Shown here: in pieces, positions 20,601 to 28,735 of the stretch
Numbering within the stretch: position 1 is the stretch's first letter
Layout of the letters: every line of letters begins with the position of its first letter
NCBI GenBank assembly: GCA_964016885.1
Contig: OZ024744.1
Span: 55,366,001-55,430,000, forward strand
DNA from: Eledone cirrhosa
Lineage: Eukaryota
Direction: 5' to 3'
Length of the DNA stretch: 64,000 nucleotides
Notes under the pieces: model-generated
What the model saw: only the letters and a program-made list of their open reading frames with translations
Database searches by the model: none
Told to the model about the DNA's origin: nothing
Made by a program: the position numbers and the translations under genes

Positions 20601-21592
20601 GGAGCTTAATAGCTTCATGTGCACCATTAACAATGTAGCGATCATTTTTCAAGTCAAATTGTGTTTGTGCGCCAAGTTCACAGCCAAAATACTTGGTAGG
20701 ATCTTAAAAATAGAAATGTTACTGTGAAAAACAATCATCTGGAATTTGGGTATTAAAGTCACGAGTTGAATTAACCATATATTATAGCACTGCCCTGTCT
20801 AAAAATACGATGCACTTAGTGTTTTGACAATCTATAGTCGTTTATGCTACATACATAGAACTAAATGGTTAATATAGTTAACACATCTGATACCTACCTG
20901 GCTAAAGCCAAACAAAACTACCTATTTTAGAGGGGGTTCCTATTTAAACTAAAATCTTCCAACATAAGAGCTATATGTAAAATTACTATCTTAGTAATAA
21001 ATAATCTCAAGTTCAAAATCCATTAATTGAAAGAGTATCCCATTAGAAATACGTTCACATTAAGGTTAAGTTGATGTAGGCGACTACAATTATTATTTTA
21101 ACCATTAAAAAAAATAAACAAACTAGATAACTTCAACTTACATTTTGGGGGCCTTGAGAGAGCTTTGGCAATCTCTGGCATGTTGACAACAACTGTTTTA
21201 ATACCATTTCCTTTACCTTCAACCTAAGGGGGAAAAAGGAAAGCAATACATTTTATAGATGACTTAAAATAAAATGTGTTATATACGAACATGATGAGTC
21301 ATTTAAGTGTGACCCATTATACAAGTTCGTTTTTATTTTGTATTTAAAATCAACTAAAGTTTTTACACGATAAATGATTTTTTTGTTTTTAGTTAATTTT
21401 CACTAAGATTTTCTTTTATTTATACTTAGTAAACATTTTAGGTTTGGCTAAGATATTTTAAAAAAATGAATTTTTCTAACGGTTCGCATACAGAAGACGT
21501 ATAAAACGTTAACATACTTTTGCTATGAGACGAGGCATCTTATAGCGATAAAACTGGTCAGAGACATTGGTGTTGACGTTAACGCAAGCCAT
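17583..21592 (-). CDS. EIF5: Eukaryotic translation initiation factor 5 (eIF5), spliced CDS of 9 exons, 442 aa: join(21592-21518, 21223-21142, 20702-20530, 20195-20079, 19709-19389, 18863-18702, 18497-18330, 18230-18105, 17687-17583)
   Basis: Manual translation gives [69 protein letters not shown]...CPQC..CIAC zinc ribbon, the [17 protein letters not shown] (DWEAR-like) motif, W2-domain acidic/aromatic boxes ([24 protein letters not shown]) and the C-terminus DIDIDAI*. All match eIF5 hallmarks. Every intron is GT..AG and the exon phases are compatible. Confidence 0.98.
18105..18230 (-). CDS. EIF5: eIF5 coding exon 8 (W2 domain, AA-box 2)
   Basis: Acceptor TTTCAG|, donor [38 protein letters not shown]. 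Confidence 0.95.
18330..18497 (-). CDS. EIF5: eIF5 coding exon 7 (W2 domain, AA-box 1)
   Basis: Acceptor TTTCAG|, donor AAG|GTATGT; KAQKYLL...[22 protein letters not shown]. Confidence 0.95.
18702..18863 (-). CDS. EIF5: eIF5 coding exon 6 (start of W2 domain)
   Basis: Acceptor AAATAG|, donor [35 protein letters not shown]. Confidence 0.93.
19389..19709 (-). CDS. EIF5: eIF5 coding exon 5 (Lys-rich linker and DWEAR-like motif)
   Basis: Acceptor TTGCAG|, donor [46 protein letters not shown]. Confidence 0.95.
20079..20195 (-). CDS. EIF5: eIF5 coding exon 4 ([18 protein letters not shown]...FILKNPPDQ)
   Basis: Acceptor TTGCAG|, donor CAG|GTAGTT; second CxxC pair and [12 protein letters not shown] motif. 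Confidence 0.95.
20530..20702 (-). CDS. EIF5: eIF5 coding exon 3 ([13 protein letters not shown]...[15 protein letters not shown])
   Basis: Acceptor TTTTTAAG|, donor TTG|GTAAGC; phase-1 join with exon 2 restores the Tyr codon. Confidence 0.96.
21142..21223 (-). CDS. EIF5: eIF5 coding exon 2 ([27 protein letters not shown])
   Basis: Acceptor CCTTAG|, donor T|GTAAGT; conserved GKGNGIKT motif. Confidence 0.96.
21518..21592 (-). CDS. EIF5: eIF5 coding exon 1 ([25 protein letters not shown], includes the GAP arginine in FYRYK)
   Basis: ATG at 21592-21590 in strong context GGA-ATG-G; donor AAA|GTATGT. The exon extends as 5'UTR to the acceptor TTTTCTTTCAG| at 21746. Confidence 0.96.
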
Positions 21593-23509
21593 TCCGATTG
21601 ATTTTTGTGACACTTATGTTTACGATGGATGCTACTATCAGGATAGCGCCAATGGCTCCAAACCGCGGAGAAATTCATAAAACCTTGATCGGATTTACTT
21701 CTGGTCGAACACTTAGTTCTCGTGCTCAATAAGCACAATGATAACTCTGAAAGAAAAAAAAAAGTTGACAAAATGAAAAATAAAATTAAATGTCCATCAC
21801 ACACACACGCCTAATAGTTCATGGATAAGATACTCACAAGTTGTTACTAAACTAGTAGTCGTTACAAGAAACTGTTCAGTCATTATTCGAACTATCTTGA
21901 GAAAATTAAATAGTCAAAGTTTGCTAAAGCAAGATTTTCACTAAGTTCTCGGGAGACCAACCAACACAAAAAATTCGAAATGTCTATTCAATCCAACAGG
22001 GGTTAACTTAACATTAGGAAATCAATTACACTCCATCATTAATTAGGAAAATAGCATTTTGCCTTCTAAATTTAAAACAAAAACCCTCGATTACTATTAA
22101 TTGTCAATATGGCCGAATATTGAGAAGATAAGTTTTCAGACGGTCTATGTGATTTTCGTTTTGATAAGCAAAAATGAAGGGAAGTGACGTTCATGGCTTT
22201 TCTCAGGACAAAAGCAAATTGTTTTGAATGTCCACTTATTAAGAATCGTTGATACAATAAAGTTGAGGCTATTGACATCAACTGCATTGAAACTAACTAA
22301 AATTCACGAAAAGAGAAGAGAGGAGAAAAAATATACCGATGTTAAATATAAACTACCAAGTAGGCGTTCATTGATGAATTATTTAGCAAGGCGTTCTAAA
22401 GAATATAGATATTTAAAAAATATAATATACACATTCATACACACACACACATACACACGGAGAAACGGATTAAATGGGATTAAACTCTAAACGGAAAAGA
22501 GCTAAGGCGATACGAGACAACTGGTGTAGGTGTCCATGTGACGACATTGAAATAAGCTTAGCTATTATATATAACGAGGCAACGTGGAAGAATTAGAAAA
22601 AAATGTTCTGGTTCCTAAAATCAAAAAAATAACTTCTGAAAAAATGTTTTTTTATGAATTTAGCCATATAAATTGAACCGGTTCAAATTATTTTTTTAAA
22701 TTTAAAAAAGACGTATGAAGTATTTTATTGTCGATAGTCTTGCGTAGAGGTCAAATAATAGCAGAGAGAGACTGCCTGACATAAGCACATTATGTTAGTT
22801 AGAGAAGGCATGCGACATACAAATTAAGATTAAAGTAGCAATTAATGGCTAGTTACTAAACTAAATTAGAACCTTCCATATCCAATTCAAATGTTAATTT
22901 TCTGACAACTGAAAACTAGATCTCACAAAGAGAAAAACGAAATTGTAGAGAAATTTTTTTTAAAATCGAATTTGCATCTTTCGTTATCTTTTCAATAGAT
23001 TATTGCTACCATGTGGTGGCGGTAGAGCCACCCACATATAGAAAAATCTTACTAAATCATACAAATAAAAAAAAACATCTAGTATTAGAGATTAATTAAC
23101 AAGAAGACATTTGGTAAATTCGAATACAGATGTCTGAGGAATACATTAGGGAAAAATAATATTTGACTAATAAAATGAACTAGTTTCCAGAATATTCGAG
23201 TAAGAAAGGAATAAGAAAAAGAAACCGGCAAGCCAGAGTATATATATATGGTCAAAGAGTTGGGTTTCTCTAAAATTTCCGTTAATATCGTTGGCAGCAA
23301 GTGGTAGTAAAGAAAAAGGAAAAATTAAAATTCCCCAAAACGCACAAGTCACACACACCATATCACATCACAAACTTTAAAAAAGTTTGTTTTTTTTTCA
23401 TGGCCATAAATCCTCTTTACGTGTTAAATGTTACAAAACCAATGAGTATTTAACACTAGACTCAGGAATTTTTCTTGATGTTATTGGTAAAGCAATACTT
23501 AATTTTGTT

Positions 23510-27484: not shown

Positions 27485-27775
27485 GATATATATATATACC
27501 GTTTTATATATGTATTGTTATAACTTTCTTTATACTCTATATATACCTCTTAATTAGAAAGTGAACAACACAATATACATATATAAACATACATATATAA
27601 TGAAAGAGAGGGATATATATATATATATATATTAGAAAGAAAGCTATGGACGAAGCATGTGCATGAAAGACTTAAGTTACCTTAGAAAGAAACAAGAAGA
27701 AAAAAACAAGTTAGTTTTAGCGGGGGTTGCTGGTTGTTTATGAGGGAGTAATAAATAGTTTTGTAGAAAACTTAC

Positions 27776-28735
27776 CGTCTTGATGCAATGACATAAAAAC
27801 GTCGACGACAACAGAAAGGACAAAAAAGATAAAATAAAATATGGCGATTGGCAACAGCTGAAGAAGGGAGCGACACGAGCTCCTGTTACTTCGTCGTGGT
27901 AGCCGTCTTTCCGTCTTCTTCTGGGCTGCTACTAGTGCTGTTGTTGTCACTACTAATGCTAATAATGGTGATGGTACTACTACTTGGCCGTCACCACCAC
28001 GTCTACTGGGGAGTGTTGGTTTTTATAGTTTTTATTTTCTCTTTGGCACAGTGATGGTGGCGGCGGCGGCTGCTGTTGCTACTGATAATAAAGGCTGCTG
28101 CTGCTGATATTGTTAATGTTACTGCTGCTGGTGATGATACTATTAATGTTGCAGCAACTGCCACCACTATTGTGCAAAGTGCTGCTGCTGCCACTAGTAA
28201 AAAGCACTAGTGCTGCTGTTAGTAACCAACACCAGTGCTTTGCACCTGTTTCTTTCCTTTGGTTTCTTTTGTTGTTTTTTATCTGCTAGTAATGATAATG
28301 ATGTCCTTGTTGATGATGGTGATAATAAATAATATATATATATATATATATATATATATATATATATATTTTTTTTTTAGAAAGGTAATGTTTTAATTGT
28401 TATGCTGTTCACAATTGTTTACTACAAATAAAATACGTGCTGGAAACTGCTTGTGTCGTTCTGTATTGAGGTTAATGATGATACTACTCCTGACGGCAAC
28501 TCTTTATTCTGTGGCTGATAATCTTCAAATCACTAGTGAAACAATATAAACTTATATTAATATACTTTTATACTTACAAAAAGTACTTCCTATAATAATA
28601 GTAATATAATAAAAAATTATATATGTACGTATGAGGTCACCAAAACGATTTCGCGTGGTGATAGTTGAAAGTTAAAAGGTATTTATTGTTTGTCTTGTGT
28701 GGCGGTGAACGATGATCTGCTAATTCCCACAATCT
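27776..28735 (-). other. Probable eIF5 non-coding 5' exon or leader region; 3' boundary firm, 5' boundary uncertain
   Basis: Consensus donor at 27775. The region is CpG-richer and free of transposons, with no minus-strand ATG from 28843 to 27795. Initiator-like CCAGATT follows a pyrimidine tract at about 28735; an alternative pyrimidine-rich start or acceptor CTCCCTTCTTCAG lies at 27870-27858. Confidence 0.55.

What the first reader, a model, noticed from the sequence alone, without database searches (positions are those of the whole stretch)
21523..27794. eIF5 autoregulatory uORF assembled across a 6-kb intron from two in-frame poor-context AUGs
Seen: joining the donor at 27776 (GACG|GTAAGT) to the acceptor at 21746 places TTTTT-ATG-T (27794) and GTTTT-ATG-A (21678) in one uninterrupted frame, [80 protein letters not shown]. 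It runs out of frame over the strong-context main start (GGA-ATG-G) and stops inside coding exon 1. These are the only AUGs in the predicted leader. Established: eIF5 mRNAs use poor-context uAUG uORFs as negative feedback, because high eIF5 lowers start-codon stringency and diverts ribosomes into the uORF. Inference: the circuit is intact here, and the 5' exon that a CDS-only annotation would miss carries half of it.
Basis: partly seen in the sequence, partly recalled or inferred. Interest (0 to 1): 0.75.

Follow-up and report, generated by a model that had tools for sequence, protein, structure and literature searches.

The report
Octopus eIF5 self-limiting upstream reading frame
The octopus mRNA for the start-codon-checking factor eIF5 carries a spliced, 80-codon upstream reading frame with two weak start codons that likely lets excess eIF5 damp its own synthesis; this circuit is already known from humans and other molluscs, and the only extra is a short basic peptide motif shared with snail-, worm- and arthropod-like relatives whose role is untested.

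Summary
This is an octopus eIF5 gene (428 of 442 residues identical to O. vulgaris eIF5). Spliced contigs of 5 of 5 runs laid, including the window's own organism, join 27776 to 21746 with no exon between. The uORF has 80 codons and two poor-context AUGs, and overlaps the strong main start by 70 nt. This genome's eIF1 start is also in poor context.

The circuit is known: Loughran 2012 lists seven molluscs with near-identical contexts, and the human uORF is also intron-split. Human and octopus share a phase-1 intron in a Glu codon (22 vs 19 nt after uAUG1); this scan noted the 22-nt intron before in a sea urchin (e1-9970198).

Extra: invertebrate eIF5 uORFs show amino-acid-level constraint (pN/pS 0.53 vs 0.91 and 0.93 in the other frames) and a basic His-Arg-Lys-type motif in 33 of 59 leaders. 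A peptide role is untested, and a human frameshift test was negative. Feedback itself is inferred here. New member of a known kind.

The parts
27776..28303 (-). eIF5 leader exon 1 (at least this long; start site not mapped); no AUG upstream of 27794
   Evidence: X24 contig letters 49-576, 0 differences; AUG count
27776..27907 (-). Conserved 3' core of exon 1; relatives align only here
   Evidence: X1, X6, X13 align over about 132 nt with 5 other letters each, then diverge
27792..27794 (-). uAUG1, context GTTTTT-ATG-T (U at -3, U at +4)
   Evidence: no difference listed at 27776-27800 in X1, X6, X13
21747..27775 (-). Leader intron, 6029 nt, GT-AG, phase 1 inside the uORF's Glu-7 codon (G|AG), 19 nt after the A of uAUG1
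23512..26695 (.). AT-rich microsatellite array (about 3.2 kb) that makes up half of the intron
21518..21746 (-). Exon 2: rest of the leader, main start and uORF stop
21676..21678 (-). uAUG2, context GGTTTT-ATG-A, in frame with uAUG1 (51 codons to the stop)
21613..21636 (-). uORF codons for the basic motif SSIHRKHK; the His lies 51 nt after uAUG2 and 35 nt before the main AUG
21590..21592 (-). eIF5 main start, ATCGGA-ATG-G (G at -3, G at +4)
   Evidence: same N-terminus as P0002
21523..21525 (-). uORF stop (TAG), 70 nt into the main ORF; exon junctions follow at 5, 87, 260 nt and further
17583..21592 (-). eIF5 coding region, 442 aa in 9 exons (21592-21518, 21223-21142, 20702-20530, 20195-20079, 19709-19389, 18863-18702, 18497-18330, 18230-18105, 17687-17583)
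   Evidence: Joints; translation; PF01873 and PF02020; 428 of 442 identical to O. vulgaris P0002; single eIF5 locus found

Best explanation
This is the octopus copy of the eIF5 leader uORF: a spliced 80-codon frame with two weak AUGs that overlaps the strong eIF5 start and likely acts as negative feedback on eIF5 synthesis. Shown: the spliced leader, the two U-rich starts, the +1 overlap, strong conservation among octopods, and a poor-context start on this genome's eIF1. Inferred from the human experiments: at normal stringency most scanning ribosomes pass both weak AUGs and make eIF5; when eIF5 rises relative to eIF1, more ribosomes start at uAUG1 or uAUG2, translate past the main AUG and cannot reinitiate there, so eIF5 output falls. 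Predicted only: termination at 21523 with junctions 87 nt and more downstream would also expose the mRNA to nonsense-mediated decay.
For: Junction in 5 of 5 runs laid. Contexts match the published mollusc set: positions -6 to -1 of uAUG1 equal Lottia and C. gigas uAUG1, and uAUG2 equals a C. virginica context. uAUG1 differs only at -6, and uAUG2 at -6 and -5, from reporter contexts of the class that responded most to eIF5 and eIF1 in human cells. From 6 nt before uAUG1 to the main AUG, relatives X1 and X6 differ at 2 of 179 nt (1.1%), against at least 9.2% and 11.2% at synonymous coding sites (P=2e-4 and 2e-5). No AUG in the upstream 509 nt. The uORF peptide before the main AUG aligns with two gastropod-like uORFs better than all 500 shuffles. 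Human and octopus share intron phase and codon. eIF1 starts at TGCTGT-ATG-A on C3, and that exon's peptide matches annotated octopod eIF1 N-termini.
Against: No ribosome profiling, reporter or raw-read data for any cephalopod were available; contigs show presence only. The transcription start is unmapped, so a share of mRNAs starting inside intron 1 or lacking uAUG1 is not excluded: X24 has unspliced contigs at depth 6-25 over the 3' end of intron 1, against 289 for the spliced contig. The eIF1 first exon is a gene model supported by homologous proteins, not by RNA.
Confidence: 0.88

Rival explanations
1. Same circuit plus a peptide-dependent step: the conserved basic motif would slow the ribosome about 17 codons after uAUG2, so that queued scanning complexes sit over the weak AUG and start there more often, or so that the main AUG 35 nt further on is blocked.
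For: Pooled pN/pS of 12 related pairs is 0.53 in the uORF frame against 0.91 and 0.93 in the other two (Fisher P=0.002 and 2e-4). A pattern [RKQ]HK|HRK|RHWK is in the uORF frame in 33 of 59 leaders, and in 0-2 in each of the other five frames. Its His, Arg and Lys codons vary synonymously. A motif learned only on arthropod-clade rows picks the window's IHRKHK as best site (P=0.043) and the same site in two gastropod-like rows (P=0.005, 0.021).
Against: The pattern was chosen after seeing the peptides. Only 3 of 12 held-out rows reached P<0.05, and the annelid-like form was not recognised. Rows are related. A 14-row clade mostly lacks the motif. In Takahashi 2020 (PMC7530721, passages) human EIF5 is not among the 8 of 17 uORFs whose frameshift relieved repression. 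An overlapping uORF blocks the main ORF without any special peptide. The octopus has Cys where most rows have Pro.
Confidence: 0.2
2. The uORF is a fixed damper: it lowers eIF5 output by a constant share through leaky scanning and mRNA decay, without responding to eIF5 or eIF1 levels in octopus.
For: Overlap and downstream junctions would repress whatever the stringency. No cephalopod test was found.
Against: A fixed damper does not need the worst possible context at both AUGs, conserved across animals (U at -3 in the longest uORF of 50 of 60 leaders; 98.8% in PMC3326321), nor a poor-context eIF1 start.
Confidence: 0.08
3. The joined frame is an artefact of guessing a splice across 6 kb, or a chance open frame.
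For: An open frame of this length occurs in 4% of shuffles; a second donor-like site lies near 27680.
Against: The exact junction is in 5 of 5 runs laid; no joint at 27680 is listed; the region is about ten times more conserved than synonymous sites.
Confidence: 0.01

Closest known systems
eIF5 autoregulation by poor-context inhibitory uORFs (Loughran, Sachs, Atkins, Ivanov 2012, PMC3326321; read: parts 1-4 of 5 of the main text and the whole PDF supplement as extracted text)
   Same: Several uAUGs with U at -3 and no G at +4; uORF1 the longest and over 50 codons; strong main start; two uAUGs as in all 7 molluscs listed; an intron inside uORF1 as in human; by primers 2, 3, 5 and 6 the human intron is also phase 1 in a Glu codon followed by Leu.
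   Different: No cephalopod is in that survey. The octopus intron lies 19 nt after uAUG1, the human one 22 nt. uAUG1 has U at +4 where the 7 listed molluscs have A. That paper reports little peptide conservation between distant branches; here a short basic motif recurs in mollusc-, annelid- and arthropod-like leaders.
Conserved-peptide uORFs of eIF5: plant HG7 (PMC2075485, PMC3426882; passages) and the human EIF5 CPuORF (Takahashi 2020, PMC7530721; passages)
   Same: eIF5 uORF peptides under amino-acid constraint within a lineage; a peptide role has been proposed for plants.
   Different: The human frameshift test showed no sequence dependence; no invertebrate test was found. The motif could not be checked in vertebrates (no vertebrate leader among my loci; the logo text is garbled).
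Conserved juxtaposition of uAUG and leader exon junction (Lim 2018, PMC5961209; section 23 and passages)
   Same: uAUG-to-junction spacing is kept between orthologues.
   Different: Shown there for human and mouse only; here it spans human and octopus, one codon apart.
AZIN1 uORF ribosome queuing (Ivanov 2018; title seen only in the reference list of PMC8892498; mechanism recalled)
   Same: A weak start upstream of a conserved peptide motif; model for the peptide rival.
   Different: No pause is shown here, the starts are AUG, and the motif is unrelated.

Membership tests
eIF5 autoregulatory uORF (Loughran 2012) | Main ORF is eIF5 | tested here: met
   PF01873 and PF02020 on single exons; 428 of 442 identical to O. 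vulgaris eIF5 P0002
eIF5 autoregulatory uORF (Loughran 2012) | uAUGs lie in the spliced leader | tested here: met
   27776/21746 junction in 5 of 5 runs laid
eIF5 autoregulatory uORF (Loughran 2012) | uAUG1 with U at -3, -2, -1 and no G at +4; further uAUGs also poor | tested here: met
   GTTTTT-ATG-T and GGTTTT-ATG-A; mollusc list in Fig. S1
eIF5 autoregulatory uORF (Loughran 2012) | uORF1 is the longest, at least 50 codons in invertebrates, or overlaps the main ORF | tested here: met
   80 codons, 70-nt overlap in +1 frame; 27 of the 29 overlapping uORFs among 60 other leaders are also in +1
eIF5 autoregulatory uORF (Loughran 2012) | Main AUG in good context | tested here: met
   G at -3, G at +4
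eIF5 autoregulatory uORF (Loughran 2012) | Contexts and frame conserved in relatives | tested here: met
   2 of 179 nt differ in X1 and X6, neither in a context nor breaking the frame
eIF5 autoregulatory uORF (Loughran 2012) | Partner eIF1 start in poor context | tested here: met
   TGCTGT-ATG-A at L006:9718; exon peptide matches P0124-P0126; no RNA check
eIF5 autoregulatory uORF (Loughran 2012) | Repression by eIF5 excess, relief by eIF1 excess, loss when uAUGs are removed | not testable with these tools
   Needs reporters or Ribo-seq
Conserved-peptide uORF | Amino-acid-level purifying selection in the uORF frame | tested here: inconclusive
   Met for 12 pooled pairs of other invertebrate leaders (0.53 vs 0.91 and 0.93). 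For octopods only 2 differences exist before the main AUG (one silent, one not), too few; window vs L029 gives 0.54 vs 1.02 and 0.80 on a 57%-identical alignment with frame-breaking gaps
Conserved-peptide uORF | Repression depends on the peptide sequence (stall) | not testable with these tools
   Human EIF5 was not among the sequence-dependent ones in PMC7530721

The most novel reading that the evidence does not exclude
Protostome eIF5 uORF1 is not just a sequence-independent decoy: it encodes an ancient basic motif (His-Arg-Lys type, about 16-27 codons after the second weak AUG) that pauses ribosomes and queues scanning complexes over that AUG, giving the eIF5/eIF1 stringency loop a second, elongation-sensitive input.
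Probability: 0.17. Interest if true: 0.65.

Novelty: new member of a known kind. Interest (0 to 1): 0.3.

Why it matters
As it stands it adds a cephalopod to a circuit already described across eukaryotes and confirms the spliced leader with transcript contigs. It gives a ready reporter design for testing start-codon stringency in octopus. The two side results are of modest use: the leader intron keeps its phase and codon between human and octopus, and the invertebrate uORF peptide is under amino-acid constraint with a recurring basic motif.

Tried and rejected
Intervening or alternative leader exon: none in 5 of 5 contigs; no joint listed at the donor-like site near 27680. Upstream near-cognate extension: the uORF frame is stop-free from 28022 and has AAG-ACG-G at about 27914, but relatives diverge beyond 27907 and X6 lacks one base at 27822, so it is not conserved. 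RNA structure: z = -0.84 for 27776-27910 and -0.42 for 21590-21746; no Rfam match in the window. A-to-I editing of the uAUGs: no difference in X24 and no A-to-G on the sense strand of the leader in relatives; contigs drop rare variants, so low-level editing is not excluded. Protein homologues of the uORF's exon-2 part: none among proteins of 40-128 aa and no Pfam match. Second eIF5 copy or retrocopy: none found (the C17 match was not examined, probably eIF2-beta). The careful tree did not finish; the quick tree serves only for rough grouping. The first two scans for the eIF1 first exon were too strict or ambiguous; it was settled by reading the DNA and comparing octopod proteins. Literature: no paper on eIF5 uORFs in octopus or cephalopods, on the cross-phylum intron position, or on an invertebrate eIF5 uORF motif appeared in eight searches; subscription journals are mostly not covered, and the supplement of PMC7530721, which holds the taxonomic range of the EIF5 uORF peptide, could not be seen.
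Full report
What is there. The minus strand of 17583-28303 holds a ten-exon eIF5 gene. Single exons match PF01873 and PF02020; the 442-aa product is identical to O. vulgaris eIF5 (P0002) at 428 positions, so the window is from an octopus. One eIF5 locus was found in the genome.

The junction. I laid five of the 24 runs listed, on the two sides of the intron separately. 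In one search the contigs of X1, X4 and X6 leave the genome at 21747 with letters of 27777-27806; the contigs of X24, X1, X6 and X13 leave at 27776 with letters of exon 2. The X24 contig (same coded organism and study as the DNA runs that hold the window; 0 differences) maps letters 49-576 to 28303-27776 and 576-807 to exon 2. So 5 of 5 runs show the exact join and no exon between. Each run gives one contig, and none of the five is on record as RNA, but all skip the GT-AG introns.

The leader. It is at least 682 nt long; contigs cannot show the start. Its only AUGs are 27794 and 21678. The 509 nt upstream of uAUG1 hold none, against 5.1 expected (P=0.0014, rough null), and 11 on the opposite strand. 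Both uAUGs have U at -3, -2, -1 and no G at +4; the main AUG has G at -3 and +4. The uORF runs in +1 over the main start and stops 70 nt inside it, with junctions 5, 87, 260 nt and further downstream. Relatives align over 27776-27907 and exon 2 only. From 6 nt before uAUG1 to the main AUG, X1 and X6 differ at 2 of 179 nt, against at least 9-11% of synonymous coding sites (the coding counts come from a cut table and are lower bounds).

The partner. The eIF1 gene lies on C3. Its first exon, 1.7 kb upstream of the SUI1 exon, encodes a peptide matching three annotated octopod eIF1 N-termini and starts in TGCTGT-ATG-A, a poor context. This is what the published eIF1/eIF5 loop requires.

Comparison with what is known. 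Loughran et al. 2012 (PMC3326321) found such uAUGs in 337 eIF5 mRNAs and showed the feedback in human cells. Seven molluscs, no cephalopod, are listed, each with two uAUGs in near-identical contexts. Their Methods state that human uORF1 holds a 1056-nt intron with boundaries kept in the constructs; primers 2, 3, 5 and 6 place it in phase 1 inside Glu-8, 22 nt after uAUG1, followed by Leu. The octopus intron is in phase 1 inside Glu-7, 19 nt after uAUG1, followed by Leu. In metagenome leaders nt 22 is G in 20 of 44 poor-context uORFs of 50 codons or more (22% expected, P=5e-4; rows related). An insect-like genomic contig (L032, L033, L035) has a phase-1 acceptor in its uORF frame and a candidate first exon ending 19 nt after an AUG, one of 11 phase-1 candidates listed for L032 and not checked by RNA.

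The peptide. One scan of metagenome contigs kept 80 of 290 eIF5 loci. Two had no placeable start and four no uAUG; 74 remained, 60 after removing near-duplicates. With the window and without two short rows, 59 leaders were counted. A basic pattern chosen after seeing the peptides is in the longest uORF's frame in 33 of 59 and in 0-2 in each other frame; in some rows the longest uORF is not the true uORF1. The quick tree places motif rows with gastropods, an annelid, insects and other arthropod-like clades; a 14-row clade has it in only 2 rows. His, Arg and Lys codons vary synonymously. As a control, a 6-residue motif learned on 28 rows taken from the arthropod side of the tree, motif or not, chose the window's IHRKHK (P=0.043, 1000 shuffles; the script's label says 2000) and the same site in L029 and L046; 9 of 12 held-out rows and 19 of 21 other rows were not significant. 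Frame-blind alignments of 12 pairs (of 15 computed; two overlapping pairs and window-L029 left out) give pN/pS 0.53 in frame, 0.91 and 0.93 out of frame; two of the 12 pairs show little or no such effect (1.16, 0.88). The extracted text of one invertebrate logo in Fig. S2 of PMC3326321, probably the mollusc one, shows an H-R-K run, so conservation within that group is in print; the authors report little between branches. Against a peptide role: human EIF5 is not among the eight uORFs named as sequence-dependent in PMC7530721 (figure and supplement not seen), although I could not check whether the human peptide has the motif.

Mechanism. Shown: anatomy, splicing, conservation. Inferred from human data: the weak AUGs read the eIF5/eIF1 balance, and ribosomes that start there pass the main AUG and are lost to eIF5 synthesis. 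Predicted: decay of the mRNA after termination at 21523 (the 50-55-nt junction rule is recalled; PMC3326321 raises decay as a possibility). Speculative: pausing at the basic motif with queuing over uAUG2.

Verdict. Real and correctly read, but a new member of a known circuit, found by this scan before in two other animals (e1-9970198, e1-7507037). Interest 0.3; the peptide motif is the one lead worth a bench test.

Noticed in passing
window 21747-23096: X24 has unspliced contigs at depth 6-25 over the 3' end of the leader intron, higher than over most of the other introns; retained intron, pre-mRNA or a minor internal start that would lack uAUG1.
   Followed up: no
window 27411-27466: Perfect 27-bp inverted repeat with a 2-nt loop, next to a 28-nt direct repeat (27393-27420 and 27550-27577), in the leader intron; looks like a small repeat element or fold-back duplication.
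   Followed up: partly
window 27908-28330: Low-complexity 5' part of exon 1 (CAG, CAT, TAG triplets), AUG-free on the sense strand; relatives also carry 400-500 further letters here but do not align at 80%.
   Followed up: partly
window 28392-28487: X24 shows depth about 14 beyond the TA repeat at 28332-28369, so some transcripts may start further upstream.
   Followed up: no
window 5635-6312, 30704-32137, 53615-54366 and others: Broken LINE-type retrotransposon pieces (RVT_1 at 31130-32137, endonuclease matches at 5635-6000 and 53615-54049).
   Followed up: partly
window 40802-41149 (+): Open stretch with C2H2 zinc-finger matches; gene exon or retrotransposon tail not determined.
   Followed up: no
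window 48512-48841 (+) and 49142-49450 (-): Two inverted, similar open stretches that resemble a Helitron helicase end (recalled likeness; no Pfam match for the first).
   Followed up: partly
window about 58700-64000: Long tandem satellite of short units that stays open in several minus-strand frames.
   Followed up: no
L032, L033, L035 (about 720 nt before the main AUG): An insect-like eIF5 gene appears to have a second uORF intron just before the RHRK motif.
   Followed up: partly
L044-L081 clade (14 rows): A group of eIF5 leaders with long uORFs that mostly lack the basic motif but share another one (AKISS or KISS) before the second AUG.
   Followed up: no
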